NCBI RefSeq assembly: GCF_004324835.1
Contig: NW_021163026.1
Location: 2,035,271-2,099,270 of the forward strand
DNA: 64,000 bases
DNA from: Dendronephthya gigantea
Taxonomy: Eukaryota
Direction of reading: 5' to 3'
Shown here: positions 11,689-53,695 of the stretch, piece by piece
How positions within the stretch are numbered: the first letter of the stretch is position 1
How the letters are laid out: each line of letters begins with the position of its first letter
Translations under genes and position numbers: made by a program
Notes under the pieces: model-generated
Seen by the model: the letters and a program-made list of their open reading frames with translations, nothing else
Database searches by the model: none
What the model was told of the DNA's origin: nothing

Positions 11689-14600
11689 ATGGCTTATCCT
11701 CCACCTCAAGGGAACTTCTCTTACCAGCGTGCCTATCCGCCAGACTACGAGCAGAATCCTTATCCCCCACCTATAGGATTTCAAAACTACATTGCGGCTA
11801 ACCCTGGCGCTCCTCCGACCCAAAATCAACCTTACCCTCCACCGACAACCGTCGCTTATCACGGCGCGCCAGAGCCACGGACTCTGAATGAACCCAGACC
11901 GACAGCAAGAAACGACGTTCCCGAAGTCGGATTTGAAGGATTTTCAAGACGATCTAACCCACCTTCGGCTCAGTCAGCATCTGGTGTTGAACTTGAAAAC
12001 GTCGAAGATCTACCACACGATATTCACACGAAAGAACCGGAGGAACAGTTGTCAGATAGTTCTGCGACCAGAATTGAGGTGTGTACTGTGTAGTTCATGG
12101 TTTCTGGTTTGAAATCTGCTCCACTATCATGTTATTTGATTGGTTTTAAGTTCTAGTAGTGTTCTAGAGATATAGTTAGATCCTGTAACTTGTAGATCGG
12201 GCGATAAAATGAATGCCTAACTCGCTAACTACAATATTTGGCTATATTTCTTTGTAGTTTAATAAAGTATGTGTTTACTTTTCGTTGCGATAATAATACA
12301 TAATCCTTTCGCATTAGATATTAAAACATGACAAAATCTGGCTTTTATTTGAAGCTAAAAAACAGTAAACTTTGATTACTATTCGTATTTTGCTTTACAG
12401 AGTTATTTAGACAACGTAGTATAAAAGCTAGTGGGGTGTAGTTTTAGATATGTCATTTGAAAATATTGGTTTCCAATAGTAATATTTTTTTCAAAAGTTC
12501 TAGAAGTATTTTGATTTGATATTGTCTAATATTTGATATTGCAGTAGTTGTACAATTTTCGTGCCAAAATTGTGTTTGGGCGACGGATTTTGTCATAGGA
12601 GCAGTATTAAACTTCAAAACAAAAGCGAACCTTCTGGAAATAAAACCGTAGCTCCAATAATTCAATAGTTCGGGTCATTTTGAATAAACTATGTAGCTAA
12701 ATAGTAAATACGTACTTTTAGGTATATTTCATGTCGTAGGTCAAATTTTAAAGGAACTATTATATTTAAACATGAAAATACAGTATTGCATTTATGTCAA
12801 TGCTCACTTTACTTGTATGTAGCATTATCATGTTATTAAGGACTGAAACACCTGTTCATTTGTTGCTAAATATATTGAGTACTAGCCTATCCAAAAACAC
12901 AGGTAACATCATAGTTCAATTTTACCTGCTGTGTTGAAGTTTTGCTGAATAATTGCCCTCAATTATATTAATTTAGTTGGAGAACCAACCAAAGCCGTTA
13001 TACTTTCGAGATGGCAGGAGAAAGATTGATTATATTCTTGCCTATCAAGATTACCCGGACAAACCAATGGAGTGGCAGGAAAAGAGAAAGGATAAACGGG
13101 AGCATTTTGAAGCAAACTTGAAGGAATATGGGCTGGAACTTGAGCAAGAAGACTTTGATGTAAGATTAAGCATTTAAATAAAGGCTCATTTACATTTGCA
13201 ATTCTTGCTGGAATTTTATGTGCAATTTGTTCTTTTGATAGATGTGAACGAGTAGTTAGTTACGAATGCATTGATGTATAAGAGTTCTGATTTGAACATC
13301 AGTAACCAATTCACTTGTTCACATCTATCAAAAGTTGCACATAGGGTATATAAACAAGCCTTAAGAATCATCTATGATTGATCCAGAGTTACTCCAGGTC
13401 GAAGTCAACTGCAAATTGAGAATTGTATTTTATTGGAAATGTGACACCAGTTGCAACCAGAAACCATAAAATAACATTGTGTTTGATACTTATAACAGGC
13501 ATCAAAGGATGGTAAGACAGTCTACATCAAAATTCATGCTCCATGGGAGGTGTTAGCTTGTGTAGCGGAGGAAATGTCCATGAGAATGCCGACCAAGGTT
13601 AGGAGGATAGTTGTAATCTTCAGCCCCCTTGCTCTTCTGCTAATCTCAATTCATTAGTTTTACATTACTTTACCCCTTAGTGACGGTCAGTTGATCAGGC
13701 AAAAGACCACCAGGCATTGAATGACTATTGTAAATCTGCCAATTTGGTGGCATCGCCCCAGATACACTTGTTTTTATTAGGTTTTAGTCTGTCTAACAAG
13801 AAGCATATAGTGATTTCACATGGCATGATGATGAACTTATCATATCATTCTTCCTTTCAGCGAAATGATTTGGAAACAAAAGGCTTGATTGACAAAATAT
13901 TTAGTCGTTTTGGAGGCAGAAGTCCATTTGAAATCAGCAGCGAAGATGTGCCCAAAGAAGAAAATTATTTCACTTGTGCTTTCCAGAGAGATAGACTTGA
14001 GAAGTGAGCCTGCCTTACATCTTCTGAGACAAGAGCCTGACATTTGTATGATGGAAAAGAACTCTGCAAATTAATCCATCCTTGATTTTTTGACAGTTTT
14101 AAAGGTCATGAAAACAAAGAAACCTTCTTCAGCAGCAGTCAAAGAAGTCTGATTGTGAGTTATTGTGAAAATGTAATTCTCCCCTTTTCAGGAGAGTCTG
14201 GAAACCTAAATCTCTGAGAAAATATAATATTTCCCATGAACAATAATCTACCTTAATTTCTTCCAGGTCTATCGTATTTTAAAATCAACAGCTTATGACG
14301 AAGATAAGAGCAAAATTGGTAAGGATGGTCGTATGTATATAGATACACATATCATTTGACCACTTGAAAACCCACTCTTGGTGTCTGGAAATCTACCTGC
14401 ATGCCACACTTTTGTAATGCCACACACGTTTTTACAACAAAATGTCAAAACTATATTTGTGTTTCATGTAGGTGTTGATAGATTGGTATCAAATCTTTCC
14501 TATAATGCTGCGTATCCGCTACACGAGGTATGTAATAAAATCTGAGTCATTTGCATTCATATATAATATAAGAAGTATTTGTTTTGAACTTTAGCTCACC

Positions 14601-17600: not shown

Positions 17601-19753
17601 TATTTTTTTTTCTTTGTTTTTCCCAGTGCAATGCGGCCGGGTGTTTGGTTGAATTAACAATACAACTCGCCATAATTATGGTTGGAAAACAGGTTTTCAA
17701 CGCTGCTATGGAGTTGTTTATACCGTAAGATGTTGCTCTGTTATGTAATCTATTTGTTGTGACCACATGCCAGGCAGGCAGGCTTACATTGCTTCGTTTA
17801 CTTAGTAAAATATTGAACTGGTGGAAACGACGTGGAAACATAATAAAGAAATTTCGTGGCGAGGAAGTGGAAGATAGTTCCGGTCCAGTCTCTCGCCTTC
17901 GCTGGGAGAATGATTATTACCTCACAGAGATACCACGCAATGCTTTGTTTTATGAATATCTTGAGATGGGTAGGTGCATGTCACTGATCTCAAAATATGA
18001 TAATGGCGCTGGACCAATGAAGGACAGTCTTCAAATGAATGAACATTATTCGTACATAGTCCAAGCCATACTAGTAGACAAAGTTTTAGAATACTTATAA
18101 TATATCCATGCAGGGTTCACCAATTTGGCAATTTCACTCATTCTAAGTTGCTTTTTTTAGCTGTTGTTTTCTACTTTCATTTTTTTTTACCCCGATCATA
18201 ATCTAGTCTTCAAATGACATCATCTCATCCATTCTTTGCATCTCCTAGTAATTCAGTTTGGTTTCATCACGATATTCGTGGCTGCCTTCCCACTCGGTCC
18301 ACTCTTTGCTTTGTTAAACAACCTGGTCGAGATTCGTCTTGACGCGTATAAATTCGTCACAACCTACAGACGACCCCGGGCCGCCAGAGCTGAAGACATT
18401 GGTAAGCTTCATCCAGTATATATTTCGTTCAGCAGGCTATGTTACACGGTGCAATTTCTGTTGCGACTTGCAATGTAATTCTACTTTTGAGAGATGTAAA
18501 TTTGGGAAGTACGAAACTTTTATGTTTATTACACTCCATGTACGTTTCTTACACTTAAATTATGAATCCTCTGCGCTAATTTACATCTCTTAAAAGGAGG
18601 ATTGCATTGCAAGTTGCAAGAAAAATTGCACCGTGTAACATGGCCTTTACTTAAAGTAGACGAATGTTCTGAGAGAAAGCGACCTCTGACCTGCTTGTAC
18701 GACGGGCCTTTAGTTAAGGACTTTGGGGGAACTGGGGGGAACTGTTGCTTCCACGTACAAACTGGTTTTTCATTTTCATTTCGTTCAGGGATCTGGTACT
18801 CAATTCTAAAAGGAGTCGTCATATGTTCCGTTCTTGTTAATGTAAGTTTGTCAGATATTCATAATGTCTTATTTGACAACTAGTCCCATTCCTTTCCCGC
18901 CATTACCGCTTATGTTTATTTTTTAACCAGGGTTTTATTATCGCTTTTGTGTCTGAGTTTATTCCTCGACTGTACTTCCAATGGAGTAAGGGAAAAGACG
19001 GGTCGTTGAGGCAATATCTTGAAACAAGTTTGTCCTGTTATGATACTAGAGATTATCCCGATAGTGAAAGACCGAATGTTACCTTACCTGCGCCTAATAC
19101 CTGTGGGCTGGGTCTTCCGAGCTGTCGGTGAGTATCGTCAACCATTCGGAAAATCACGACACGAATTTTCATACATGCGCCTAAATATGTTAACTAGACC
19201 TAGTTTCTCTTTTTACCCTCAAATTTAAGATCACTTCATGGAATGATAAGAGTAAACATTTTGCTTTCTCTTTTAACCACGATAATAGTTCATATATCGT
19301 GCGAAATCCAACACATATTTTCTTCCATTTTCTCAGGTACCGAGGGTACAGAGACAAACCAATGTCTTTGGCAGAAAATCCATCAGGAAACCTAACCAAC
19401 AACTACGACTTTACGAAGGACTATTGGCACATATTATCTGCCCAGCTGTTTTTTGTAATAGCATTTCTGGTGGGTGATAAATGTAGATTCACTGTTGGTT
19501 TTCATATGAATCAATAACTGACGGTGAAGTTGTTGTCGATCGGGATTTCCTTTCTGGATTGTAATGCTCATTTTCACCTACACAAGTCCTGATATTAACC
19601 ATTCTCTGTATTTTTAGATTGTTGTTTTTGGCCTGACGTTCATTCTTGCCTACATCATACCAGACAAACCGAAGAAGCTGGATAATCAGATAAGGAGAGA
19701 AGCTTACCTCGCTAAAAGCATTCTCCGCACAGATCAAGTCCCTGTAGATAACT
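11689..19753 (+). CDS. Anoctamin (TMEM16 family) gene with more than 25 short exons. Exon 1 is 11689-12078 and encodes a proline-rich N-terminus. Exon 2 is 12977-13159. The last exon is about 19618-19753.
   Basis: Exon 2 encodes [17 protein letters not shown], the anoctamin N-terminal dimerisation-domain signature. Later exons encode typical TMEM16 transmembrane segments: [141 protein letters not shown], and a C-terminus ending [24 protein letters not shown] then stop. All junctions are GT-AG. Confidence 0.85.
13195..13345. mobile_element. Hairpin MITE, family M-gtgaacgag, in anoctamin intron 2.
   Basis: Long inverted repeat: ttttgatagatgtgaacgagtagttagttacgaatg ... catcagtaaccaattcacttgttcacatctatcaaaag. 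A second copy lies at 51705-51880. Confidence 0.75.
15376..15486. repeat. AT-rich tandem repeat with a unit of about 45 bp, about 3 copies, in an anoctamin intron.
   Basis: ttagatatattaaatatgattttattgtatatg / ttagatctattaaatattatttattgtatgcg / ttagatatattaaatattatttattatgtacg. Confidence 0.8.
16858..17140. repeat. R115 family array of about 2.5 units, reverse orientation, in an anoctamin intron.
   Basis: Same unit as at 6975-7390. Confidence 0.85.
18436..18643. mobile_element. MITE with 37-bp terminal inverted repeats and a nested inner hairpin, in the anoctamin intron just after exon ...RAARAEDIG.
   Basis: The left TIR is atgttacacggtgcaatttctgttgcgacttgcaatg. The reverse complement of the right TIR is atgttacacggtgcaatttttcttgcaacttgcaatg. 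There is an inner inverted repeat, gagagatgtaaatt / aatttacatctctt. Related copies lie at 46362-46790. Confidence 0.8.
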
Positions 19754-39361: not shown

Positions 39362-41225
39362 GTGATCCTTCACAAGTCCACAGACCCGAAGCAATATACG
39401 ACGAATATAACGAATTTCATCAATTGAAACCAGGCAAATCTTTGGAAAATGTCGGCAAAGACACAGAAGCGTTTCGAGATTTCAACGTGGATGAGAGCAT
39501 GGCGCATGTTCGGGAGACATACAGAAACATGCATACGAAGCAAACTGTTGCTTTAGGAAAGGAAATGGTACAGGAAATAGGATAGAAATGTTGTGTACTT
39601 TGAGCTTTACAGTAGATTTCAAATTACTCTTCCCATACCAAGTTTACAATCTTGTGTCTATTCGGACTATTCCAAGTCTATGTCTATAATTTTGCAAATT
39701 GCAACTTCACAACACATTAGTTGACTTTGCAACATCTTGGCATGACTTGCTGTAGTGAGATGGCTGGATTACCTTTAGCTCAGCTTAGCAAACTTAGATC
39801 ATCAGTTCTGTACCAGTATGGACACTTCCCAAAATTTTACTTGAGTGCCCACAAAACAATAGTTTGGAAACAGGGCAGGCAATGTTATCCATTGTTAGTC
39901 AGTGGGATGGTTTTCACTGTCGGGAACAAATTTGTGAAGTGTCCATTGATGGTCAATTTCATCAATTACTTCTCTGATCATCTACAGCGAGAAAAGTGGT
40001 TGTCATTCGATCATGCTGAGTTGACTATTATGGAAGCTATAACGCTATTGGACAATCTCGTTGATGAAAGTGACCCCGATGTGGATGTTCCTAACTCTGT
40101 TCACCTTTTCCAAACAGCTGAGAGGATACGAGAGGTTCATCCAGACAAAGGTGAAGCATTGAGATGTATCTATGAACATTTTGCTTGCATTGTTTAAGAG
40201 AATGAAATAAATCATTCTCTTTCTTCCAGATTGGTTTCAGCTGGTTGGATTGATTCATGATGTGGGGAAGATAATGGCATTGTATGGCGAGCCACAGTAC
40301 TTTGTTGTGGGTGACACATTTCCTCTTGGCTGCAAATTCTCAGATAAGATTGTCTTCTCTGAACAATTTGTTTACAACCCTGATGCTAAAGTCCCTGAAT
40401 ACAGGTAGATACAGCTAAAAACGCAAGTCCAATTGCTTATCAGGTTATGATAATTATATCTTAGGATTTAATGGCTTTCTGTTTTTTTGTCTTAGTTCAA
40501 AGTATGGCATGTATGAACCCAATTGTGGTTTGAACAATGTCCAAATGTCCTGGGGTCATGATGGTAAGTAATCGTTTTCAAGTACTAATTAAACAATTTC
40601 AAACTGTTCATCTTCATAGCAAGGGACATACTGTGACATAATGTACTTCTATTACAGAATACATGTATCAAGTATTGCTTGCCAATAAATGCAAGATTCC
40701 TGAAGAAGTAATAATTCTTTTTTACTTTCAACTTGCAACAAGCATGCATGATATTGACAAATCTACTAGTATTGAAGAAGTGTTACCATGCAGCCTAACT
40801 GTTAACATTAAATTATTTTAGGGTCTATACATGATACGGTTTCATTCATTTTATCCGTGGCATGGTTCTGGCGATTATGATCATCTTTGTAACACTGAAG
40901 ATCGCAAAATGATGTCGTGGATTAAAGAGTTCAAGTAAGAGTGTCACCTGGTTGTTTGAATTTTTAATAAAGAGAGAATTTATTGATAAGTTAGTAAGTT
41001 ATTTTATGGTTCTCTTGGCATGTCAGTCAGATAGTAATTTACATATAGTTTATTAATCTGGTTTATTCATTAACTGAGTTGAAATTTCTAAAGAAAATGT
41101 ATATCTTTTTTTCCAGCCGATTTGATTTGTACTCAAAAGCAGACTCTTTACCAGATGTTGAGAAGATAAAACCCTACTATCAATCTCTGATTGATCAGTA
41201 TTGTCCAGGCAAGCTTAAGTGGTAA
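39362..41225 (+). CDS. MIOX: Inositol oxygenase (myo-inositol oxygenase) gene. Seven exons are visible, and the Met-containing 5' exon was not located.
   Basis: The exons encode, in order: DPSQVHRPE...FRDFN...YRNMHTKQTV; REKWLSFDHAELTIMEAITLLDNLVDESDPDVDVPNSVHLFQTAERIREVHPDK; DWFQLVGLIHDVGKIMALYGEPQYFVVGDTFPLGC; YGMYEPNCGLNNVQMSWGHD; EYMYQVL; LYMIRFHSFYPWH; and FDLYSK...PYYQSLIDQYCPGKLKW then stop. These are diagnostic MIOX motifs. Confidence 0.85.
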
Positions 41226-41862
41226 ACCTATTGCATCCCTTTTTTTCTAACTCAAACATACCGGTATAACAAGTTCTCCTTGGTGAGATTTATTGAAGAC
41301 AAAATTTAATAGCATTTATAAATAAAAAAATGTACATATATTATAAAATTTTTCAGTCCAAGCTAGTCCTTGGGTTTATTAGAGTTACATAAGTCATATA
41401 GTCATGCATATATTTGTGTTCTAAATAATTGAGTTTTTTGAAATCAATTGTTTTTACAGCAACTCGACAGATTTATATAAAACTACTTTTGTATAGTGTG
41501 TAAAACTTAATAAGAATCCAGTGCAGGCGGGACTTGTGGAATTAGAATAATGAAGGCATTAGTAATGAAATCAAGAGAGTTTACAATGTGACAATTGTAA
41601 TAATGGCATTGCATTAAAATGGTAATTTTGACAATTAAGTGTCTATTATGATTTATGAAATACTTGTGGCATGACAAATCCATATAACTGTTTAAAATGT
41701 TTGGATAATCGGAATGTCATACCATATGGTCATACCAAAGAATACTTCAGATGCTCTGCATTATTAAATTACATTAGTAATAAATTAGTTTGAGGCTTTG
41801 AGCCTTGTTCATTGAGAGGTTTTTAAAATTCTCAACCAATTGTCAATCCCATAATGTCAAAA

Positions 41863-43330
41863 TCATTCAGCATGCTGTAACATAGCAACCATAAGTTTTC
41901 TCTCTCCGGTAAAACTAAGTCGTGAGTGCTGCACAAGATGGTTGTCCAATGCAATTACATCCCCTTTCTCCAGTTGAAACCCAACAGCAACCTGCCATGT
42001 CACTTCGCGGATGTGTTGCACATACTCTTCAGGTATTTCACTCATGTCACCATAAAGGGAATGAGTTGGGAACTTATGAAAGGGTAGATCAGTGAACTGC
42101 TCCCAGAATGGGTGATTGTATTTCCATGCTGATGCATGTTTACGAGTAATATGATTGAACCAGACAAGTTCCCCTAAATAGTTAAGAAGATTATGGGTGA
42201 CTGAAGTCTAAATTCTAAAACAATCTAAGCTTAGCATATTAAAAACAAATTACAATTTTACCTTTGAAATTAATCATTGCAGGTCTACCATAACCAAAGA
42301 TCAATGATCCATTTTTTTCCCATTCATAATCTGCACCAATGCTATCAAGGAATTCTACCACCTTACTTCGATCTTCGGTTTGAAAAACCTTAAAACATCA
42401 GGTATGTGATTTTAGTATGCTGGCCTATATATATATCATAAAACAGAAATTGCCTTATATTACCTCTTGCCACGACTTGTACTTCTCGAGGCTCTTATCT
42501 GCCCAGTGGTAGTTGTAATAAATGCCAAGCTTTGCAAATGTTCCCACAATTTCTGCATCAAGGTTCTTCAGGATGTCTCTATTTCTGATGATTACGGTCT
42601 CTCCACCACATCCTGGACCAGCTGGTTTATCGCAGTAAAACAACAGCTAATAAAAGAATCCTAGCTATTGATTGATAATTCAAGTCCCACTCCAGGGTTT
42701 TACTGGAAATTGAAGGCAGTTTTGCTTGTTGTTGTGGTAAGAACCCTATTGTTATGATAGTAGCCCATTCAACCATGATTTAGGGCAATCTGGGGAGGGG
42801 GACAACTCTGGCTTATGTGTGAGAGTGGTCATTACTAAAATATAATACCATTTATTCATACGTACCACATCTGGCCACTTGGGCATATATGCCATTTCAT
42901 TATGACCTTCAATGGTTATACCTGGGGGCTCATCGCTAGCGGTGTAAACATCTTTCCCAACTACTTGTCTAGGGGCAGCCCCCCCGATGTAATCCATGGC
43001 GTTGAACTTCCCCAACCCGTTGAAAAAATCGTTAAAATCCTGATTTCCATTGATCGGAAAATCGCGGAATAATACAGCACCATGTTCATTTAAGATTTCT
43101 CCGAAATTCGTCTTGCAAATTTTAGCACATTCACTCGCGGTCGCGTGATCAGAAATTCCAACATCTTTCGCTGAAACGACAAACGGAAAATTCTCTCTCG
43201 GTGGATTTAGATTTTTTGGGAAAGTCGAACTGGTTGAGCCAGGGAGGTATTTTCTATTTGCTATTTCGACCAAATTTCTTCTCGGTTGAGTTAGCCGTAC
43301 AAACTTGAGCAGTTTCTTCGCTGGATTCAT
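41863..43330 (-). CDS. TauD/TfdA-family (clavaminate-synthase-like) Fe(II)/2-oxoglutarate dioxygenase. Four exons: about 43330-42867, 42643-42447, 42383-42258 and 42169-41863.
   Basis: The exon ORFs are 42752-43330 (...FRDFPINGNQDFNDFFNGLG...AMDYIGGAAPRQVV...TASDEPPGITIEGHNEMAY), 42455-42643 (FYCDKPAGPGCGGETVI) and 41863-42045 (VIALDNHLVQHSRLSF). Together they carry the His/Asp metal ligands and the C-terminal HSR motif typical of TauD/CAS-like proteins. The donors are GTACGT and GTAATA. Confidence 0.7.
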
Positions 43331-43792
43331 ATTTAGTTTTGTACTTTTAATATATACGCAACAATGTTTTTGTCAAACCTTTTGCCCGCCCATTTCAGGA
43401 AATGCATAAAAAAACTGGATATTTTAATTCAGTTTTCTTGTTTTGGCAGTTTTGACTTTTGAGCGGTGTTTTTTTTTTCATTTCCACGATAATTAATGGT
43501 CAATGGCAGAAGTCTTTACAAACGATTTTTCCAGTAAGATGTTTGTCAAGATATTTGCAGTAAATTTGTTAGTAGAACTAAATTTGCCGAATTTTGTTTA
43601 CCGTCGAAGGTCAGGACCTTTGAAAAACCTGTTTCGCATCAATTAATAGGACTATTTTCACATGTTTAAACAAAGAGAACCTTCATGGAAACTCACAGAA
43701 CAATTTTGTACAAAAAAATAACAAAGCAGGAATGTGGAGTAACTAGATTTTATTATGTACATTCCTTGGTTTATTAGTAAATGCCTATGATC

Positions 43793-45043
43793 ATGAAACT
43801 ATGAATGGTAGTTTGGTTCAATTTTGAATTCAAAGTTATTTTTTGTCCAGCAAGGATTTTTAACACTCATTGGCTCTATCATTGTTCTTTCCAGAAATGT
43901 AACATTGTCCTCATGATCTACTGTTATCACTGAGTGTGTTCTAAAATTTCATAGAAAAGAAACAATAAAATGAAGATGAAGTGTAATCTATTCACTATAC
44001 TATACAAGCTTCCCCTGGACCTTTCAGGCCAAAAAAATCTTAAGCTTACTATCAAGGATAAAGGCCTGGCCTGGAACCATTTACACTTAGACAGACTTGA
44101 TGAAGTCACTTGTATAAACAACCCACCTGGAGCAATAGTTCATTTCAGGAATTTTCACTGATATTGCTGAGAGTCTTTCAAGGAACATGTCAGGGAGGCC
44201 CTCATCTTCAGGACCGCGAAAGGCATCATCAACACCATACCTAGGAATAAGTTACTTGTGAAAGATGTGTCAAGATGATTTGCAGCTAGATGACTGGCAG
44301 ATGGTAATTAAGAATGTCTCTCCTGTTTTTACCTAGTCTCATCAAGTAACAATTCCAAAACTTTATCAACTTTCTCTTGCATTGAACTCTCTTCTTTCAC
44401 AATCTTTTCAAACTGTTTTTTTCCCAAATCAACTTTCTTCCAACCATAATCCAAATATCGATTACTAAGACCATAGATTCCTGGCGTCAAGTCCTGCAAA
44501 GGTCGACTCTCTTTGTTGCAATAATAACTGAAATTCATTTCAGTTTTTCCAGGAATGACTTCACCAAGAATCAAGTTAAAACCACCATATTTGTGGCCAT
44601 TTTCTTCAACATTTTCTAGAAATGTTTTGGGTTTTTCCTCAGATTTAAGAAAATCAGACACAAGTTGCCCTCGGCCAATTTCATCCTCGCGTTTAAATTT
44701 TGGACTTTGTCTGTAGTTCGTGAGGATTCCAACTTTACCACTTTTAGACATCCCAAGCCAGGTACCACCTTCTTTTCCAGGAAAAAGATCAATACCTATA
44801 AAGGTCCATAATTGGTAAATAATTATATCATCATTATTCTAACTGAATTAATAAAGTCATCATTATCTCTCTAGTTGTGACCATTTGTTACATCCCACGG
44901 CACATCACCTGATATAATATCTGGTCGTTTTTCCCACCAATGGAGCTCTTTTGTTGGTCGACTAGTGTATTCATCTCTGTTCACACCAATTATAACTTTA
45001 TATCCATCATGTATTGGATTATCTGAGATGGCCAAAAACACAA
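43793..45043 (-). CDS. TANGO2: TANGO2 (transport and Golgi organization 2 / DUF833) copy A, four exons.
   Basis: Exon 1 encodes MCIVFLAISDNPIHDGYKVIIGVNRDEYTSRPTKELHWW (compare human MCIIFF...LILAANRDEFYSRPS). Exon 2 encodes GKEGGTWLGMSKSGKVGILTNYRQ...GFNLI...LTPGIYGLSN. The last exon encodes VDHEDNVTFLERTM (compare VDADGHVTFTERSM). Confidence 0.8.
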
Positions 45044-45273
45044 TACACATGTTTCATATGGAAGCATATAATCAATTATTAATGTAATCGATTATTTCGT
45101 ATGTTTCGTCTATATAGACCAATAAATGGACTCTATTTCAACTGTATTTTTTTAAAATATGTAACATCGTCCTATATCCAGTTATCACTTTCGAGATCAG
45201 TGTCAAAAAATATTAGTCTCCAGACTCCATCTTCCTCGCGCGCCATTTAAAAATGTTGCGGGAGCCATCAAAG
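45044..45273. promoter_or_regulatory. Putative bidirectional promoter between TANGO2 copy A (-) and GOSR1 (+).
   Basis: The start codons of the two genes lie head-to-head about 230 bp apart. The interval contains a GC-rich tract (ccatcttcctcgcgcgccatttaaaaatgttgcgggagcc). This is inference from gene arrangement only. Confidence 0.4.
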
Positions 45274-48200
45274 ATGGCTGCCTCGAACTCGTTAAAAGAA
45301 TGGGAAGGTAAGCGAGATTCGCCGAGATTCTGTTGAATTACAATCGTAAGATACCTATAAACGTATTCTTCGTGTGCCTGTGTGTGGATTCATGTTCGTA
45401 GCAGTTCTGTAATCTCAGTTTTTGGTTGTTGTTTATGCCTTAGACTTACGCAGAAAAGCTCGTCAAATTGAAAACGAACTCGATTTGAAGCTGGTTTCTT
45501 TCAGCAAGCTCGGCACTAGTTACAGTCATCGAGATGACAGGTAGGAAAGAAAGCTCCGAGTACCATTATGTAGTTATATTCGACACAAAATGGATGTTTA
45601 AGGGAATTTATTTGCCATTATTTTGCTCTAGTTCTGACAAATCTCCGCTGTTGAATAATTCGTCGAGCGAACACATGTTTCAAACAATGTCCTTAGAAAT
45701 TGGAGATTTACTGTCAAAGGTATGAAAAATTGAAAAAGTTTCACAGTATTACGAAATATTGCTGATATTAAACATATATGTTGTGTATTACGTCATCTGT
45801 ATTTCGTCAGCAGATGACGTCACATAAACCTTATTTAGGCACAATGACCACATTAGAAATTTTGCTGATTTTCATCAGGGGTGTGCTATTAACTATATAA
45901 ATAACTTACAAAAGAAAGCAATTTACTATTAAGTACAAACTGCCCCAAAAAACTAATCAATCTATACTACTTGACCATTTGGAGGCAGGCGAAATAGTTT
46001 TTACAAAACAAATTATAAGATACTGAATTTCAAACATTCTCTGATATTCTATGAATGAAGTAATTTCTTCACCAGGACTTTTCCAAGAAAACGTTTGTAA
46101 ATTCTAAGATATTTTAAATTTAAAACTCTTTTTCATCCAGCGCGGGTTTTCAATGCTCATTGGTTGAACCATAGTTCTCTCTAGAAATGTTACATTGTCT
46201 TCATGGTCCACCGCTATGACTGAATTGGTTCTATAAATTAGGCAAATGAAAGAGGAATTCGTGTTGGTTTTATATTACAGTAAGCTGAGGCCTGTTTTCA
46301 AGCTCTTCAAGAGCCAAATAAATTGTTACTATACATGCGCGAAATATGGACTGTAATTAAAGGCGTTGTTACACTATGCAATTTTTCCTGCAACTTGCAA
46401 TACAATTCTTCGTTTGAGAGATGTAAATTTGGCAACTACCAAACTTTCGTCTTTATTACACTCTATGGCGTTTCTTATATTTACAATTTGAAGGCTCTTC
46501 CCTAATTTACATCTCTTAAAAGTAGAATTGCATTGCAAGTTGCAGGAAAAATTGCACCGTGTAACATGGCCTTAAAGGCGCTGTTACACTATGAAATTTT
46601 CTTTGGAACTTTCAATGTGATTATAATTTTGAGGGATGTTAATTTGTAAAAAGTATTCGAAATGCTAAGAAGACGTTAGCTGATCGTAAGAAATGTTCGT
46701 ATTTGACAACTTTAAATGTCTCAGAAGTAGAATTGTATTGCAAGTTGCAAGGAAAGTTGCATAGTGTAACACCACCATAAGTCGTGTCGTATAACAGGAC
46801 TCACCGTGAACAACAGTTGAACTCGGGCATTTTAATCGAGATTGCAGTAAGTCCTTCGAGGAACTCTTCGGAAAGACCATCATCCTCAGGACCTCGAAAT
46901 GAGGCATCGATAGAATACCTTAAAATAAGAAGATTTTACGTCCCGAAAAATAAACCAAGACTTCTTCGCAAAACGTTTCATCAGATATAGAGCAGGTGCT
47001 ACTGACTGCATATTTTTCTTCCTAATCTTCTAAAAATTGGGGATTCCTGTGTTGTAAGTCTTCAGTGGTACCTAAAAGAACCCGTCGATTACCTAAGTTA
47101 TAAATGTCTCTCCTATAATAACCTTACCTAGTCTCATCTAGTAACAGTTCCAAAACTTTATCAACTTTCCCTTGCATTGAACTCTCTTCTTTCACGATCT
47201 TTTCAAACTGTTTCTTTCCCAAATCAACTTTCTTCCAACCATAATCCAGATATCGATTACTAAGACCATAGATTCCTGGTGTCAAGTCCTGCAAAGGCCG
47301 ACTCTCCTTGTTGCAATAATAACTGAAATTCATTTCAGTTTTCCCAGGAATGACTTCACCAAGAATCAAGTTAAAACCACGGTATTTCTCGTGGTTTTTC
47401 TTAACATCGTCCAAAAATGCTCTGGGTCCTTTCTCGGATTTCAAATAGTCCGACACAAGGTGTCCTCTTCGTATTTCGTTTTTCCCCTTAAATTTATCAC
47501 TCTGTCTGTAGTGGGTGAGGATTCCAATCTTTCCTCCTGTGGACATCCCAAGCCATGTCCCCCCCTCTCCACCAGAAACAAGATCAACGCCTGTAAAACG
47601 ATTTCTGCTTTAAATCTGCTTGTGTTTTTGGGCACAAGAAAACAATAGGGGTATACTAGTAAATTGAGGATTGGATGTGCTGACGCAGACGCTTACGGAG
47701 CACTACCGTGATTGGGGTTGCGTTTCATTCTCAGAGATGGTCATATTCAGCACTCTATTTGAATTTCAAATCCTCTTATGAGGTAGTGTCATTGATGGGG
47801 TATAAAAATGTAGAAAATTTACCCCATTCTCGGCAACATCATGTTCCCCAAACATTTCCCGCGTTTTTACGGATGCAATTATTAAAGGTTATTGTTAAGA
47901 ATTTTGCATGAAAATCCCGTTTTTTAACTAACCATAGACCATTTCGGCTTGCATGCAAATTCACCCATTTCAGATGTTGTGATCTTGGAATAAAACGTAA
48001 CTATTTTAGACCATGTGATTTGAAATGGGTTAGTTTGCATACAAGCTGAAAAGGTCTATGAATTATTGAATGAGAATTTAGTTATTTCTGTTGATATACA
48101 TGGTTTTTCTGTTTAGTTGTTATACAAATCCAATGTTCAATGCATCCTTGGCAATCCCATGTTTGGAAAACCTTGTTGATTTGAATACAACACCACATCA

Positions 48201-51200
48201 CGCAAATATAACCGCAATTGCTTTGTAGCGTATTTCCGTATTTATTTGTTTGCGAATTGCGATTTGGTGCATTTTATTTTTATCTTAACATCTTTTCAAC
48301 ACGTAAAATAACATGCATACTTTCAAAGAGTATAAAAGATATATATACACCTTATAGTATAGTATTTTAAAGTAAAAAAACAGGAATATTTTAAAGTCAC
48401 CTGTGAATAAGCAGGACATCGTCAAGTCATATTTCAAAGTCATCTTCAGACAGAATTTTTTTTTAAATGGTCACAGACAGAATGATTTTTTTAAATGGTC
48501 ATGCTTTTTGGTGTTTATTTCAATTAATAATAACTTTCAATTAATAATATGCCAACAAGTCTGCTTTCAATTAATAATAAGCCGGTAATGAACTCGCGTT
48601 TAACACTTATACAACCATGTGTGTCAATGTATGTATGTGTGCCCCAACCACAGTACGTTGGTTTCCACGGATGAGCCTCAGGATTAAAAATTACAAAAAG
48701 CGTTACCACCAGTTGATGTTATGGTTGGAATGTGTTGCAATATGTTTCTCGAGTATTTATTACGTTTGAGCAAAGTTTTAAGTGGCTTTTGAATACGTGA
48801 ATTGATTCAACCAGTTCGCTATTCCATAGCTTAGCTCCACTACATTTAAAGCTTTTTTTAGAGACCATCACAACGAGAAATTAATATTTTTCGAACCTGA
48901 GATAATATCTGGTCGATCCTTCCACCAATGAAGTTCCTTCGTTGGCCGATTGATATACTCGTCCCTGTTTACGCCGACAATAAGTTTGTATCCGTCTTGT
49001 ATAGGGTTGTCTGAAATTGACAAAAATACTATGCACATTTTTTTGTGTCGAAATTCGGTAAGATCAAGGCTTTTGCTGGTTTCGCGAAAGGTTTTTGTTC
49101 CGTCTTCGAGAACGTCGTGAAATGTATCCATAAATCATGTGACTGTGCCAAATCGCTCCAGTCTACAGGGTGCATCAGATTAGATTATTTACTTTTCAAT
49201 GCAAAGGTTGTCAATGCATATCACCCTCCACCAAAAAGAAACACTTAGACCGGGGGCGTAGCTAGAAGCTTAATTGGGGGAGTGCATATTCATATATTCG
49301 TCTTATACCTGAATGATTTCTTTTGTATGCTATTGTTCCTATGGTGTAAACATGAATATATGCAGTGGCGTAGCCAGCCCGACAATTTAGTCATGCTATG
49401 CTAATATTTTGGTGTTCATTGACTGTAAAAACAATGAATTTCTAAAGAAATGAATAATGATAAGTCGTCAGGCTGGCTACGCCACTGAATATATGAATAT
49501 ACATCCCCCAATTAAGCGGTCTAGCTACGGCCCTAAGCCCCTGACTTAGACATGACTTGGCCTACATTCCGTAAGCTTATAAAGTTTCAAAAGATGCGAA
49601 AAACATAAAAACCTTCGATGCCTTAGTCTTCTTGTCGCTTTTAGCATCATTAGACGTCATTTGACACGGGTCACAGCATCGTTTTGTTCGTTACACGTCT
49701 TTCCGTGTCTTTGGAATAATTACACCGATAACGAATTATGGGAAGAATCATGTCGTTTCCTGTCTTTTTATGTCGTTGAGATAGGATTTGTTCTGTCCGA
49801 GCGACACTGTCGTTTTCTGTTTCTCTCAGTCGTTATCGGTCTTTCACGACTATTCCAAAGACAGGGAAAGACATGTAACAACAGCTAACGACTGAATGGA
49901 AACTAGGCATAAGCAGTCATATATCGTGTGAATAAGTTTATAATACGTTGCTCGTTCTCAATTTTAATTCAACTTCTCAATTTTAGTTGACGGAAATCAA
50001 CGATAAAATGGTCGAGGTGACGTCGAACCTGAGTTTCTCTCAGCCGAGTGCCTCGCAAATGCATACACTGCAAAGACATAGAGATATCTTGAAAGATTAC
50101 TCGCAAGAATTTACCAAGACAAAGGTATGCAACTAAATAAACCGCATAGCTGTAGAATGATCGACCTCTCCTAGATCTCTGGGTGGGCTGGTCGGCATTA
50201 TCCATGCTTTAGATGGTATTATTGCGTCTTCTTGACATTCCATGCTTAAATCATACTATTTTAAAACCTTTCTTCTTTTAGGCAAATATTGAAGCGTACA
50301 TTGAAAGAGAAGAGTTACTAGGGTATGTTTGTGGAATAAGTTTCATTATGAATACATGGACGTTATGTTTACTTAAAGTTATCCACTACAAACGATTTCC
50401 TTTGCTCTAAACCGTTTGATATGCAGAGTGACCTGAACATAGATTTCGTCAAAATGAAGTTTACTTTTGATTGCAAAACAGCAAGGGTTCGCAACGCATG
50501 TTGGGTCGTTTAATATATGACATTTGAAATGTCAAATGCACTGTTTCCAAGGAATGAGCGGAGCATTCCATTTGTGCTTTAACACAGTTGCAGTGATGTT
50601 GAAAGAAATTGCTTTAAAGAAAGTGCTTGTGTTAGAAGAAAGTGCTTGTGTTAAAAGAAAGTGCTTCCCATGACTGTAGGATCGCCTTTTCGTATTGACT
50701 TTCCACATTTTAAAATACAGCAAGCATTTCGAATATGTTTACATGCAAGATGCGCTCCAAAACCGTGTGACATCGTAGGCAGCCCGGTCAATGCGGGTAC
50801 CGCATACTGATATTACTTAAAAATTGTGTATTCGTTATTGTAATGCATTGTTTCCATTGGTAAAGACGACGCTGTAATTTGTGAATTATCTATCTTTAGA
50901 AGTGGTCGTTCCTCGTCTTCTGGCGTTCATCGTAAAACCGATCTCTATCTTAAAGAAAATGAACATATTCGAAAGTGAGTTGAAACTGATCTCAAAGAAG
51001 CGTTGATAGTGCTAAGATTTTTATCATTCTCTACCGTGTTTCCTAAAATTAGTTTCTACCCCACAGACTACTATTTTACAATCTTTACAATCTTAAAACA
51101 CTCCTCGACCTCTTAAATCTCTTCACATCCCACAAATGTGGTATGGTTAACTACCTTGTCTTGAGCCGCACTAGCGGGCTGGCCCAACCTAAATTTTTGT

Positions 51201-52118
51201 TGCTCCTTCCCCCCTCTCTCCAAAATCCTTGGTACGCTTCTGATGAATTCGTTGTTTTAACGAACGTGGTATATTTGGATCGCTGGACCGCTCTATGCCT
51301 CTATCCATTGAACTTTGAATCTTATATAATGACCGACATTGCTTGATAATTTAAGAATGTGCACTAAAAGATTTAAATCTGTAGCAAAATGCGTGTAATT
51401 CTTGTTTATCTTGTTTTTTAATGTTGTTTTTTTGCAGTTCTGATCGCCTCGCCAATGAAGCTATCGGGTAAGTTGATTCAGCTTGTAGCCATGTCATTGA
51501 CAACAATCCTGCGTGTTGTCATGGATGGTTGGGGCAGCGCTTTTGAAACGATGGGATTTTTGTTTCACTTAGAATTGCAATGGCGACGAAGGAGAACATG
51601 TCGAGGCAGCGAGGAGCACTTTATCAAATATCATCCAGGATGGGAGGAATAACTGGTATCCTTTTGACAAAACTAATCAACTTTTTGCGGGACAAAGTCC
51701 GTTTACACTTGCAATTTTAGCTGCGATTTTATGTCGATTTTCTTCTTTTGATAGATGTGAACGAGTGATTAGTTACGAATGTTCTGATTAATAAGAGCTC
51801 TTATTTGAGCATCAGTAACTAATTCACTCGTTCACATCTACCAGAAGGCGAAAATCGCACATGTGAACGAGCCTTGACGTGAATAGTTACTACCAACTGT
51901 TGATATCTAATTGGTACTTTACTTAATATAATGATGGTCATCTACCTGCAGACCATTTATATTTTGTCTTTTTAACCTTAACCAACACCACAGGTCGCTT
52001 TCCCGCACTGAACAATTTAATGCAGAAAATAAATTTGAGAAAACGACGGGATGCAATAATCGTGAGCGTGGTCATAGCGGTTTGTCTGATCTTGCTTATT
52101 CTCTACGCTACAAGGTAG
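45274..52118 (+). CDS. GOSR1: Golgi SNAP receptor complex member 1 (GS28) gene. Nine exons: 45274-45307, 45444-45540, 45632-45719, 49986-50124, 50281-50321, 50900-50974, 51438-51467, 51572-51655 and 51995-52118.
   Basis: Every exon keeps its phase and matches GOSR1 from memory: MAASNSLKEWEDLRRKARQIENELDLKLVSFSKLGTSYSH; SDKSPLLNNSSSEHMFQTMSLEIGDLLSK; MHTLQRHRDILKDYSQEFTKTK; ANIEAYIEREELLG; TDLYLKENEHIRNSDRLANEAIGIAMATKENMSRQRG; and a C-terminal TM anchor RFPALNNLMQKINLRKRRDAIIVSVVIAVCLILLILYATR then stop. Confidence 0.9.
46113..49039 (-). CDS. TANGO2: TANGO2 copy B. Four exons: about 49039-48896, 47581-47128, 46914-46808 and 46204-46113. It lies entirely inside GOSR1 intron 3 on the opposite strand.
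   Basis: The exon structure and splice phases match copy A. ORFs 48868-49131 and 47124-47546 are about 85-90% identical to copy A at the protein level (MSTGGKIGILTHYRQ...GFNLILGEVIPGKTEMNFSYYCNKESRPLQDLTPGIYGLSNRYLDYGWKKVDLGKKQFEKIV is identical over long stretches). Confidence 0.8.
46362..46790. mobile_element. One full copy (46362-46572) plus two partial copies of the 18436-18643 MITE family, in an intron of TANGO2 copy B and of GOSR1.
   Basis: gttgttacactatgcaatttttcctgcaacttgcaatacaattcttcgtttgagagatgtaaattt...aatttacatctcttaaaagtagaattgcattgcaagttgcaggaaaaattgcaccgtgtaacatggcc. The fragments are ggcgctgttacactatgaaattttc and agaattgtattgcaagttgcaaggaaagttgcatagtgtaacac. Confidence 0.75.
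49262..49533. mobile_element. Palindromic element (putative MITE) with terminal inverted repeats of about 45 bp and an inner inverted repeat.
   Basis: The outer arms are gggggcgtagctagaagcttaattgggggagtgcatattcatatattc ... gaatatatgaatatacatcccccaattaagcggtctagctacggccc. The inner arms are gcagtggcgtagccagcccgac ... gtcaggctggctacgccactg. Confidence 0.65.
51705..51880. mobile_element. Second copy of the hairpin MITE family M-gtgaacgag, in GOSR1 intron 8.
   Basis: ttttgatagatgtgaacgagtgattagttacgaatg...catcagtaactaattcactcgttcacatctaccagaag. This is about 85% identical to the 13195-13345 copy. Confidence 0.75.
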
Positions 52119-53695
52119 TTGTATGTATCGAAGCATGAAAATGGTCTCCAAGCTTTCACCCTCTGGATTCATTGGGGATGCTGCAGGGTATGTTGGTATA
52201 TCAGGGTAAAATGATAGCTACTTGGGTAAAGATTACCATTGTAATTGCATTACCCACTGACCACCATAGAGGCTCCTGTTCGATCCTCATATTAGGTTAG
52301 AATAATATTAGACAATAAGATTGAACATGTGATTTTGATATTCAAAAACATCCTCCAATTTGAAATGAAATATTTTACTGTTAAAAATGATAAAGCGGAT
52401 AGAGGGGGATTTGGGTAGCTTACATTCAAATGAACTCTAGGAAAAAGATGTAAATTTTAGAGTGAAATAAAAGCACAGACTCTAAAGAAATAATACAATG
52501 AAAAGTTCCCCTGTGCATGCGTTTATTTTTTGTGCCATCACATGATGCCTCATCTCAGACCCTAAACTCACCTATATAATAAAAAACATTGTATTTGATG
52601 CTTAGAAACAATGACAAATTACACATGACCTGGGTTTTTTTCAACCATTTAATACAAAAATGTCAATCATATAATAATCTTACACAATTATTAGTTCCAT
52701 TATTTTGTATATATACAACTGAATTACAACAAGCTGAGTTAGTGTCATAGCAATTTTTCACAACCTTAACTTAGCTACTAAATAATTATATATAATAATT
52801 ATATATATAATATATATTTATATCCCATAGAATAGCTTAAGTATAGAACCATATATTTCTAGCAAATAGCAGTTTGCTTTTTTTGCTAAGTATTAACTGT
52901 GTGCTTATATTATGAGGGGAAGAAATTAGACAGATTGGGAAACTAAGCAATACTCCAGAATTAAAGTATAAATACTAAAAATAACAAGAACAATAACATG
53001 CATAGGGTAGTCTAAAAAGTAGGTGAAATATTGCAGTTGCATTATTGAATTGTCGCCTTGGTATATGCATGCTTAAACCTTGTCCTTTGTATCTTTTCTT
53101 ATCTTTTTTAATGTTTTTTGAACATGAACAACAGCAACAGAACTACTAGGCATTCAATTCACCCAAAGTTTGTGAAACAGCAGAGAATTGCAAATGTAGT
53201 TAGCATCCAACATGCATTCACACCTCACAACAACGCATGTGTGCATATCTTTTAGAATTTTGTATTGTGAGCAGCTTCTTTAATGACATCCTTGTTCCTT
53301 TCATGTTTCATAACTTGATCAAATTGCATTCGAAAGTTTTCTGGACTAGCCCACGAGTTAGGACGATACTAAAACAGAAATGCACAGGTTATGAATTTGG
53401 GACTTATTATCTGGTTTACCCCTTAAAAATTTCCAATCAAAAGCTAGGATACAACGTACAAGTAATTAATTGCTATCTGCTGTTACATGTACCTGTTTAT
53501 TAAGACGTGATTTTTCTCGTAGTTGAAGTTTTACTTGAGTGCTTAAAAGTTGAAATAAGAAAGTTATAATATATTGACTTTATTATGCCTATTTTACCTG
53601 ATAATCATTCTTCCTGTGATGGGTCTAATGGAGATCATTATTCATCTAAAGATAACACAACTCTAAAGATAACATTTCAATTCATGGCCTTGCTT

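What the first reader, a model, noticed from the sequence alone, without database searches (positions are those of the whole stretch)
43793..52118. Tandem TANGO2 duplication interleaved with GOSR1: one copy head-to-head with it, one nested in its intron on the opposite strand
Two TANGO2 genes with the same four-exon structure, about 85-90% identical at the protein level, lie on the - strand. Copy A (43793-45043) starts about 230 bp from the GOSR1 start codon in divergent orientation. Copy B (46113-49039) sits wholly inside GOSR1 intron 3 (45720-49985). TANGO2 and GOSR1 both act in ER-Golgi trafficking, so a shared bidirectional promoter plus a nested paralog is a striking arrangement. Copy B's introns also hold the MITE cluster at 46362-46790, which may have accompanied or promoted the duplication.
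Basis: partly seen in the sequence, partly recalled or inferred. Interest (0 to 1): 0.6.

Follow-up and report, generated by a model that had tools for sequence, protein, structure and literature searches.

The report
Nested TANGO2 duplicate inside soft-coral GOSR1
In the soft coral Dendronephthya gigantea a TANGO2 gene sits back-to-back with the Golgi SNARE gene GOSR1, and an old, still-functional TANGO2 duplicate lies inside a GOSR1 intron; the layout is real and already in the public annotation, and it is an ordinary kind of gene arrangement.

Summary
The window is Dendronephthya gigantea (octocoral) DNA. My exon models for both TANGO2 copies equal RefSeq proteins XP_028396610.1 (A) and XP_028396387.1 (B). 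My 9-exon GOSR1 model equals XP_028396388.1 except for a start codon 7 codons further upstream. Copy A is head-to-head with GOSR1, 202 bp ATG to ATG. Copy B lies wholly inside GOSR1 intron 3 on the opposite strand.

Corrections:
- A and B are 77% identical, not 85-90%. They are mosaic: about 70% identical over most of the protein, but 84/85 residues match in the 3' half of exon 2.
- Comparison with an orthologous two-copy locus from another species shows that this block is a recurrent gene-conversion tract.
- The MITE pair in B's intron 3 is absent from that ortholog. It was inserted after the duplication and did not cause it.

Both copies are under purifying selection (dN/dS 0.20 for A, 0.11 for B). 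The TANGO2-GOSR1 divergent pair is conserved in octocorals (Xenia, Paramuricea and three other contigs). It is absent in Pocillopora, Rhopilema and Asterias, so it is lineage-specific synteny and not evidence of an ancient functional coupling.

Verdict: a real, already annotated locus with a lineage-specific nested duplicate. Interest is low to moderate.

The parts
43799..45050 (-). TANGO2 copy A (parental-type copy). It has 4 coding exons: 45050-44909, 44795-44333, 44240-44127, 43940-43799 including the stop. It encodes 286 aa.
   Evidence: Exon model with GT-AG sites. Pfam PF05742 at 242 bits. 100% identical to RefSeq XP_028396610.1. It shares the C-terminal EPNYHS-type tail with single-copy orthologs.
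46104..49038 (-). TANGO2 copy B (derived, nested copy). It has 4 coding exons: 49038-48897, 47590-47128, 46918-46805, 46230-46104 including the stop. It encodes 281 aa.
   Evidence: Exon model. Pfam PF05742 at 224 bits. Identical to RefSeq XP_028396387.1. dN/dS is 0.11 against its ortholog L001_B.
45253..52118 (+). GOSR1 (GS28-type Golgi Qb-SNARE). It has 9 coding exons: 45253/45274-45307, 45444-45540, 45632-45719, 49987-50124, 50282-50322, 50900-50974, 51438-51467, 51573-51655, 51994-52118. It encodes 243 aa from the upstream ATG.
   Evidence: Exon model. Pfam V-SNARE_C at 59.5 bits. Identical to RefSeq XP_028396388.1 apart from that model's 7 extra N-terminal residues; 94% identical to Paramuricea GOSR1.
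45051..45252 (.). Spacer of 202 bp between the start codons of TANGO2-A and GOSR1; the putative bidirectional promoter.
   Evidence: Read directly from the sequence. The whole block 44902-45731 aligns to L001 at 79%. Head-to-head spacers of 172-909 bp occur in five other octocoral loci. All of them end in a CGCG-containing (CGCGCG in four of six) ..CATT/TATT-(C/T)AAA motif just before the GOSR1 ATG.
45720..49986 (+). GOSR1 intron 3 (4267 bp), the host intron of copy B.
   Evidence: Exon 3 donor GTATG at 45720 and exon 4 acceptor TTTTAG ending at 49986. The same intron is about 190-220 bp in Xenia and L003 and 26.5 kb in Paramuricea.
44308..44585 (-). Gene-conversion tract, copy A side: the 3' half of exon 2 (CDS nt ~353-605) plus about 25 nt of intron 2.
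   Evidence: Divergence from B is about 4% here against about 27% elsewhere. Direct repeats D1 and D6. Quartet site patterns are 18 concerted vs 2 orthologous inside the tract and 4 vs 62 outside; Fisher p = 8e-13.
47098..47380 (-). Gene-conversion tract, copy B side.
   Evidence: Same evidence as for the A side.
46357..46780 (.). Two adjacent MITE-like elements (46357-46576 and 46572-46780, about 215 bp each, with terminal inverted repeats of about 79 nt) in intron 3 of copy B.
   Evidence: Inverted repeats I1-I3 and direct repeats D3/D4. A further copy lies at window 18434-18647 at 85% identity. They are absent from the orthologous site in L001.
49253..49533 (.). Nested palindromic MITE-like element between the B start codon and GOSR1 exon 4.
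   Evidence: Inverted repeats I5 and I6.
49690..49879 (.). Palindromic MITE-like element just upstream of GOSR1 exon 4.
   Evidence: Inverted repeat I8, 29-nt arms at 93% complementarity.
47933..48060 (.). Short palindromic element in intron 1 of copy B.
   Evidence: Inverted repeat I4.
51735..51857 (.). MITE-like palindromic element in GOSR1 intron 8.
   Evidence: Inverted repeat I7. Another copy lies at window 13226-13334 at 86%.
42752..43330 (-). First coding exon of the downstream TauD-family dioxygenase gene. This is a conserved synteny neighbour, not part of the duplication.
   Evidence: ORF. Pfam TauD at 36 bits. TauD follows TANGO2 in L001, L002, L003 and Paramuricea.

Best explanation
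This is a genuine three-gene locus of the octocoral Dendronephthya gigantea.

**Ancestral state.** Ancestral octocorals had one TANGO2 gene head-to-head with GOSR1. The two were separated by a few hundred bases that must hold both promoters.

**Duplication.** TANGO2 was duplicated at the DNA level, introns included. This happened in the common ancestor of Dendronephthya and the unnamed species behind contig L001, after the split from the Paramuricea, Xenia and L003 lineages.

**Most likely route (inferred, about 50%).** The event was a tandem duplication of a unit made of TANGO2, the bidirectional promoter and GOSR1 exons 1-3, with one breakpoint in GOSR1 intron 3. That gives the order A, e1-3, B, e1-3', e4-9. 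The redundant GOSR1 5' exons next to exon 4 then decayed, so the surviving GOSR1 transcript has to splice across copy B.

**Present state.**
- Both TANGO2 copies have remained protein-coding under purifying selection. This is shown.
- A stretch of about 250-280 bp (the 3' half of exon 2 plus the start of intron 2) has been repeatedly homogenised between A and B by gene conversion, independently in both species. This is shown.
- MITEs invaded B's introns and the rest of GOSR1 intron 3 later. This is shown for the 46357-46780 pair.
- GOSR1 transcription necessarily reads antisense through B. Mutual transcriptional interference is therefore possible but untested.
For: **Identity and models.** Both TANGO2 models equal RefSeq proteins. 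The GOSR1 model equals its RefSeq protein apart from that model's 7 extra N-terminal residues. Pfam supports all three.

**Ancestral head-to-head state.**
- Xenia: TANGO2 8676-9742(-), GOSR1 10001-11774(+).
- Paramuricea: TANGO2 8033-9706(-), GOSR1 10001-41576(+).
- L002 and L003 show the same.

**Orthologous interleaved layout in L001.** The order is B-like copy, then GOSR1 exons 2-3 on the opposite strand, then A-like copy. The locus is collinear with the window at 78-87% DNA identity, non-coding DNA included.

**Timing.** The neighbour-joining tree on the regions outside the tract gives ((Dg_B,L001_B)100,(Dg_A,L001_A)97)97. The L003 pair is a separate clade at 100.

**Age.** The fraction of synonymous sites differing between A and B outside the tract is 0.76, which is saturated.

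**Selection.** dN/dS between orthologs is 0.20 (A) and 0.11 (B). Cys2, the NRDE motif, Asn157 and Lys166 of the proposed Ntn-hydrolase site are retained in both copies.

**Gene conversion.**
- Divergence is 4% in the tract against 27% elsewhere.
- Tract dS within a species is 0.21 and 0.08, against 0.41-0.60 between orthologs.
- Site patterns are 18:2 inside the tract and 4:62 outside, p = 8e-13.

**Plausibility of the duplication unit.** In the independent, younger L003 duplication, the second copy carries a duplicate of the GOSR1-proximal promoter and a decayed GOSR1 exon-1 relic.

**MITEs arrived later.**
Against: - No relic of GOSR1 exons 1-3 or of the A-side spacer is detectable in 49039-49986, by either blastn or tblastn. 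This is expected given saturated divergence and about 470 bp of MITE insertions. It means the proposed duplication unit is inferred, not shown.
- B's 5' flank does not align between the window and L001, so B's promoter is unidentified.
- No transcript data could be examined here. Expression of B, and the exon 3-exon 4 splice of GOSR1 across B, rest on the RefSeq model, on exon-junction conservation and on selection statistics.
- The identity of the L001, L002 and L003 organisms is unknown. They are taken to be octocoral-like from sequence similarity and synteny only.
Confidence: 0.85

Rival explanations
1. This is a co-regulated functional module. TANGO2 and GOSR1 are kept head-to-head, and B is kept inside GOSR1, because they act together in ER-Golgi traffic and need a shared bidirectional promoter.
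For: The divergent pair and its short spacer are conserved in six octocoral loci. The spacer is conserved at 79% between the window and L001. A CGCG-containing (CGCGCG in four of six) ..CATT/TATT-(C/T)AAA motif precedes the GOSR1 ATG in all six, and CGGAA (ETS-like) repeats fill several of the spacers.
Against: The pair is absent in a hexacoral, a scyphozoan and a sea star. The whole block kinase-GOSR1-TANGO2-TauD-MIOX is syntenic in octocorals, so conservation of the pair is no more than local synteny. The role of TANGO2 in Golgi traffic is disputed (PMC11867700, PMC12782551, PMC13044924). No paper connects the two genes. Divergent pairs less than 1 kb apart are common in animal genomes (established knowledge).
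Confidence: 0.12
2. Copy B arose when a TANGO2-only segment was inserted directly into GOSR1 intron 3, for example by repair-mediated or template-switch duplication. No GOSR1 5' exons or promoter were ever duplicated.
For: No GOSR1 exon 1-3 relic or promoter similarity exists upstream of B. Similarity between A and B stops within a few bases of the coding exons, outside the conversion tract (D2).
Against: With synonymous sites saturated, neutral flanks would be unrecognisable under either model, so the absence of relics is uninformative. The only young duplication available at this locus (L003) did carry the promoter and part of GOSR1 exon 1. Under this model B would have needed to acquire a new promoter inside an intron.
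Confidence: 0.35
3. Copy B is a non-functional or decaying duplicate, or the duplication is an assembly artefact such as an uncollapsed haplotype.
For: B has substitutions at two positions that are functionally implicated in human TANGO2: Lys56 to Gly and Asn75 to His. Its 5' flank is not conserved with L001. No transcript evidence was examined.
Against: The ORF is intact and the splice sites are canonical in two species. dN/dS is 0.11 over dS 0.78. Core catalytic-type residues are retained. About 27% nucleotide divergence between A and B rules out haplotypes. The same layout appears in an independent assembly of another species.
Confidence: 0.04

Closest known systems
Nested (intronic, opposite-strand) protein-coding genes of animal genomes
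   Same: A complete intron-containing gene lies within one intron of a host gene on the opposite strand. The host must transcribe through it and splice over it.
   Different: The nested gene is a paralog of the host's own divergent neighbour. The arrangement probably came from a local tandem duplication rather than from insertion of an unrelated gene or growth of the host intron around one.
Bidirectional (divergent) gene pairs sharing a spacer of less than 1 kb
   Same: TANGO2-A and GOSR1 start codons are 202 bp apart on opposite strands. The pairing is conserved across octocoral genera. GGAA/CGGAA ETS-like motifs lie in the spacers.
   Different: Transcription start sites and co-expression are unknown. 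The pairing is restricted to octocorals among the taxa sampled.
Tandem paralogs evolving in concert by ectopic gene conversion (as in globin or opsin clusters)
   Same: A bounded tract is nearly identical within each species but differs between species. Flanking sequence follows orthology.
   Different: The tract is short (about 250-280 bp). It has the same boundaries in two species. The two copies are separated by three exons of another gene.
TANGO2 / NRDE family (PF05742; human TANGO2, PDB 8sv7)
   Same: Full-length Pfam match. N-terminal Cys2, the NRDE motif, Asn157 and Lys166 are conserved in both copies.
   Different: Dendronephthya copy B has Gly in place of Lys56 and His in place of Asn75 (human numbering). 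No biochemical information exists for cnidarian proteins.

Membership tests
TANGO2 (Pfam PF05742, NRDE family) | Full-length match to the family profile above the curated threshold | tested here: met
   Copy A scores 242.5 bits and copy B 224.2 bits against a cut-off of 22.6, covering profile positions 1-255/257. Match to human TANGO2 (8sv7) has E = 7e-43.
TANGO2 (Pfam PF05742, NRDE family) | Proposed Ntn-hydrolase-type site: N-terminal Cys2, Asn25-Arg26-Asp27-Glu28, Asn157, Lys166 (PMC13044924) | tested here: met
   Both copies start MC... and carry NRDE, the SN of YGLSNRYL and the K of GWKKV. Copy B differs at Lys56 (Gly) and Asn75 (His).
GOSR1 / GS28 Qb-SNARE | C-terminal SNARE domain followed by a transmembrane anchor, and orthology to annotated GOSR1 | tested here: met
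   V-SNARE_C scores 59.5 bits against a cut-off of 27.1. The hydrophobic tail AIIVSVVIAVCLILLILYA is read directly from the sequence. The protein is 94% identical to Paramuricea GOSR1 and 802 GOSR1 homologs were found.
Nested gene (gene within an intron of a host gene) | The entire coding region of the inner gene lies between two consecutive host exons that are spliced together | tested here: met
   B (46104-49038) lies inside 45720-49986. The host exon 3/4 junction reads ...LLSK|LTEIND..., continuous with its orthologs. The RefSeq model uses the same exons. UTR extents and actual splicing were not testable.
Bidirectional promoter pair | Divergent genes with start sites less than 1 kb apart | tested here: met
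   The ATG-to-ATG distance is 202 bp, so the transcription starts must be closer than that.
Bidirectional promoter pair | Shared regulatory region giving co-expression | not testable with these tools
Interlocus gene conversion (concerted evolution) | Paralogs are closer within a species than orthologs are between species, over a bounded tract, with the opposite pattern in the flanks | tested here: met
   Site patterns are 18:2 in the tract and 4:62 in the flanks, p = 8e-13.
MITE (miniature inverted-repeat transposable element) | Short non-coding element with terminal inverted repeats, present in several copies | tested here: met
   About 215-bp units with 79-nt arms at 86% complementarity. A third copy lies at 18434-18647. 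The orthologous site in L001 lacks them.
MITE (miniature inverted-repeat transposable element) | Target-site duplication diagnostic of a superfamily | tested here: inconclusive
   The flanks read ...TAAT|TAAAGG... and ...CCATAA|GTCG.... A TTAA or TAA duplication is possible but not clean.

The most novel reading that the evidence does not exclude
The TANGO2-GOSR1 divergent pair, kept throughout octocorals and re-created by two independent duplications that each carried the promoter, could be a truly co-regulated unit. That would be independent evolutionary evidence tying TANGO2 to the Golgi SNARE machinery. The nested B copy would then be tuned by antisense read-through from GOSR1. B's non-depleted CpG content (0.86, against 0.30 for A) would mark it as an inducible, differently regulated paralog.
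Probability: 0.08. Interest if true: 0.5.

Novelty: new member of a known kind. Interest (0 to 1): 0.25.

Why it matters
**For genome annotation.** The case confirms that the RefSeq models are coherent and explains why GOSR1 has one oversized intron.

**For evolution.** It is a compact, well-dated example of three things:
- A local duplication can turn a gene's divergent neighbour into its nested tenant.
- A short gene-conversion tract can persist with the same borders in two species.
- L003 is a younger, independent duplication at the same locus. It still shows the copied promoter and the decayed GOSR1 exon-1 relic.

**For TANGO2 biology.** It says little. The linkage with a Golgi SNARE gene is confined to octocorals and is most simply explained as synteny.

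Tried and rejected
**Look-ups that returned nothing**
Context came instead from fragments and orthologs.

**Negative searches**
- Relics of GOSR1 exons 1-3, or of the A-side spacer, upstream of B. Neither blastn (word size 7) nor tblastn found anything better than noise.
- Similarity between the 3' flanks of A and B: none.
- Conservation of B's 5' flank between the window and L001. The local alignment score equals the best of 100 shuffles.
- Rfam scan of 43000-53000: no RNA family.
- Literature search for TANGO2 together with GOSR1: one unrelated paper.

**Readings considered and rejected**
- Retroposition of B. Rejected because all three introns are retained at identical positions.
- Uncollapsed haplotypes. 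Rejected because the copies differ by 27% at the nucleotide level.
- One ancient duplication shared with L003 and resolved differently. Rejected because the two L003 copies cluster together at 100% bootstrap with dS of about 0.16.
- Purifying selection alone as the cause of the identical tract. Rejected because 18 sites are fixed differences between species yet are shared by both paralogs within each species.
Full report
**What is in the sequence**

Reading 43000-53000 and translating the minus strand gives two four-exon TANGO2 genes. I fixed the exon borders by canonical GT-AG sites and reading-frame continuity.
- Copy A: 45050-44909, 44795-44333, 44240-44127, 43940-43799; 286 aa.
- Copy B: 49038-48897, 47590-47128, 46918-46805, 46230-46104; 281 aa.

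The first three exons have identical lengths (142, 463 and 114 nt) in both copies, so the duplicate was made from DNA and not from mRNA.

On the plus strand a nine-exon GOSR1 gene runs from 45274 (or 45253) to 52118. Exons 1-3 lie at 45274-45719 and exon 4 starts at 49987.

Pfam supports all three genes: TANGO2 at 242 and 224 bits, and V-SNARE_C at 59.5 bits.

**Source and existing annotation**

A protein search and an exact look-up show that the window is from the octocoral Dendronephthya gigantea. The genome paper is PMC6447388.
- My A and B models are identical to RefSeq XP_028396610.1 and XP_028396387.1.
- RefSeq GOSR1 (XP_028396388.1, 243 aa) is identical to my model, except that it starts 7 codons earlier, at 45253.
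- That N-terminus (MLREPSK-MAAS) is shared with Paramuricea and Xenia.

The three genes and the exon structure that splices GOSR1 across copy B are therefore already in the public annotation. No paper in the library discusses the arrangement.

**Corrections to the finding**
- Boundaries differ by up to 9 bases from those given.
- A and B are 77% identical over 286 alignment columns, not 85-90%.
- The similarity is mosaic. CDS nt 1-360 and 601-840 differ at about 27% of positions. Nt 361-600 differ at about 4%. At the protein level 84 of 85 residues (118-202) are identical, against about 70% elsewhere.
- The repeat finder sees this block as a 300-nt direct repeat at 91%. A weaker 27-nt continuation runs into intron 2.

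**Comparative loci**

Fragments found in the first search led to three unannotated contigs. GOSR1 homologs led to annotated genomes. Mapping with tblastn gives the following.

| Locus | Layout |
|---|---|
| L001 (Tara metagenome scaffold) | B-like copy, then GOSR1 exons 2-3 on the other strand, then A-like copy: the same interleaving as the window. The contig ends before GOSR1 exon 4. |
| Xenia sp. | One TANGO2, head-to-head with a compact GOSR1 |
| Paramuricea clavata | One TANGO2, head-to-head with a GOSR1 whose intron 3 is 26.5 kb |
| L002 | Like Paramuricea |
| L003 | A complete compact GOSR1, followed by two TANGO2 copies in tandem; not interleaved |
| Pocillopora damicornis | GOSR1 faces a myosin gene |
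| Rhopilema esculentum | GOSR1 faces an acyl-CoA-synthetase-like gene |
| Asterias rubens | The upstream neighbour of TANGO2 is a 2338-aa gene |

The head-to-head pair is therefore an octocoral feature among the taxa sampled. It is embedded in a conserved block kinase-GOSR1-TANGO2-TauD-MIOX.

**Timing and selection**

I built spliced models for all copies.
- A neighbour-joining tree on the regions outside the identical block gives ((Dg_B,L001_B)100,(Dg_A,L001_A)97)97. The two L003 copies form their own clade at 100.
- The A/B duplication therefore predates the split of Dendronephthya from the L001 species and postdates the split from Paramuricea, Xenia and L003. L003 duplicated independently.
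- Outside the block, synonymous sites between A and B are saturated (fraction differing 0.76).
- Orthologous comparisons give dN/dS of 0.20 (A; dS 0.49) and 0.11 (B; dS 0.78). Both copies have been maintained by purifying selection.
- Both keep Cys2, the NRDE motif, Asn157 and Lys166 of the active site proposed from the human crystal structure.
- Dendronephthya B alone has Gly for Lys56 and His for Asn75.

**Gene conversion**
- Inside the block, paralogs within a species are closer (dS 0.21 and 0.08) than orthologs between species (0.41-0.60).
- Among the four sequences, sites where A equals B within each species but the species differ number 18 between CDS nt 353 and 606, against 2 sites of the orthology pattern.
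- Outside that interval the counts are 4 and 62. Fisher's exact test gives p = 8e-13.
- Constraint alone cannot produce this pattern. It requires sequence exchange after the species split, in at least one lineage and very probably both.
- The tract has the same borders in both species. The 5' edge falls between nt 352 and 357, and the 3' edge just inside intron 2.
- In window coordinates the tract is about 44308-44585 (A) and 47098-47380 (B).

**MITEs**
- The elements at 46357-46576 and 46572-46780 have arms of about 79 nt. A third copy lies at 18434-18647.
- The window and L001 align on both sides of them. L001 has only about 13-16 unrelated bases at that site.
- The insertion therefore happened after the duplication and cannot have promoted it.
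- Further palindromic elements occupy 47933-48060, 49253-49533, 49690-49879 and 51735-51857.

**How B came to be nested**
- Nothing upstream of B (49039-49986) resembles the A-side spacer or GOSR1 exons 1-3. B's 5' flank is not even alignable between the window and L001. With saturated divergence and about 470 bp of MITEs in that interval, this is uninformative.
- The young L003 duplication is informative. Upstream of its second copy lies a copy of the GOSR1-proximal promoter (9412-9280 against 4987-4859, 83%).
- Next to it is a decayed piece of GOSR1 exon 1. A 29-nt deletion has removed the first ATG and the second ATG has mutated to ATA.
- At this locus, therefore, a tandem duplication did carry the shared promoter and the 5' end of GOSR1.
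- By analogy I infer that the older Dendronephthya-lineage event had its breakpoint in intron 3 and copied exons 1-3. The copy adjacent to exon 4 was then lost. I put this at roughly 50%, and a TANGO2-only insertion at roughly 35%.

**Function**

Nothing here shows co-regulation. The short spacer (202 bp) forces the two promoters together, and it is conserved at 79% with L001. All six octocoral spacers end in a CGCG-containing (CGCGCG in four of six) ..CATT/TATT-(C/T)AAA motif before the GOSR1 ATG, and several contain arrays of CGGAA.

Against a functional reading:
- The pairing is lineage-restricted.
- Current literature places TANGO2 in lipid/acyl-CoA or possibly hydrolase biochemistry, not in Golgi traffic (PMC11867700, PMC12782551, PMC13044924).

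The arrangement is best read as ordinary synteny plus a local duplication.

**Verdict**

The genes are already annotated. Nested genes, divergent pairs and converting tandem paralogs are all well-known kinds of arrangement. The added value is the dated history, the conversion tract and the L003 intermediate. Interest 0.25.

Noticed in passing
L003:9250-9412 versus L003:4800-4987: In the independent, young TANGO2 duplication of contig L003, the second copy carries a duplicate of the GOSR1-proximal promoter. It also carries a decayed relic of GOSR1 exon 1: a 29-nt deletion removes the first ATG and the second ATG has become ATA. This is a snapshot of how duplications at this locus drag the neighbour's 5' end along.
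   Followed up: yes
L005 (Paramuricea clavata) 10490-37013; L002 4702-6222: GOSR1 intron 3, the same intron that hosts TANGO2-B in Dendronephthya, is 26.5 kb in Paramuricea. In Xenia and L003 it is about 200 bp. In the related contig L002 the equivalent region holds a 506-aa zf-TRAF/Kelch ORF on the strand opposite to GOSR1. This intron seems to be a repeated landing site.
   Followed up: partly
window 43799-45050 versus 46104-49038: Copy A is strongly CpG-depleted (CpG observed/expected 0.30 over the gene, 0.37 in coding flanks). Copy B is not (0.86 and 0.92), and the window average is 0.78. GC3 is 0.29 in A against 0.43 in B. The contrast has the same direction in L001 (0.38 against 0.62). 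This may reflect different germline methylation or expression regimes. Counts are small (8 against 24 CpGs).
   Followed up: partly
window 48876-48874 and 47513-47511 (copy B codons 55 and 74): Dendronephthya copy B has Gly where human TANGO2 has Lys56 (sulfate-binding triad). It has His where human has Asn75, which aligns with a catalytic Asn of bile-salt hydrolase. Copy A keeps Lys and Asn. The L001 B ortholog has Arg at the Lys56 position and keeps Asn75.
   Followed up: partly
window 45200-45252; L001, L002, L003, L005, L006 spacers: All six octocoral TANGO2-GOSR1 spacers end in a CGCG-containing (CGCGCG in four of six) ..CATT/TATT-(C/T)AAA motif immediately before the GOSR1 ATG. The Paramuricea, L002 and L003 spacers contain 5-8 tandem GTTCGGAAA..GTCGGAA (CGGAA, ETS-like) units, which Dendronephthya and L001 lack.
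   Followed up: partly
It is conserved in Paramuricea and Xenia and is used by the RefSeq model, so the GOSR1 coding sequence probably begins at 45253.
   Followed up: yes
window 18434-18647 and 13226-13334: These are further copies of two MITE-like families seen in the locus. The first matches 46357-46576 at 85% and the second matches 51735-51857 at 86%. The elements are therefore dispersed repeats.
   Followed up: partly
window 45776-45834: A short inverted repeat containing a perfect TGACGTCA (CRE-like) palindrome lies in GOSR1 intron 3, about 270-330 bp beyond copy B's stop codon.
   Followed up: no
window 39721-43330: The conserved neighbours are a TauD-family dioxygenase (first exon 42752-43330, minus strand) and a myo-inositol oxygenase (exon within 39721-40197, plus strand). 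The order GOSR1-TANGO2-TauD-MIOX is shared with L001 and L003. L002 and Paramuricea show it as far as TauD. Xenia has MIOX directly next to TANGO2, with no TauD called between them.
   Followed up: partly
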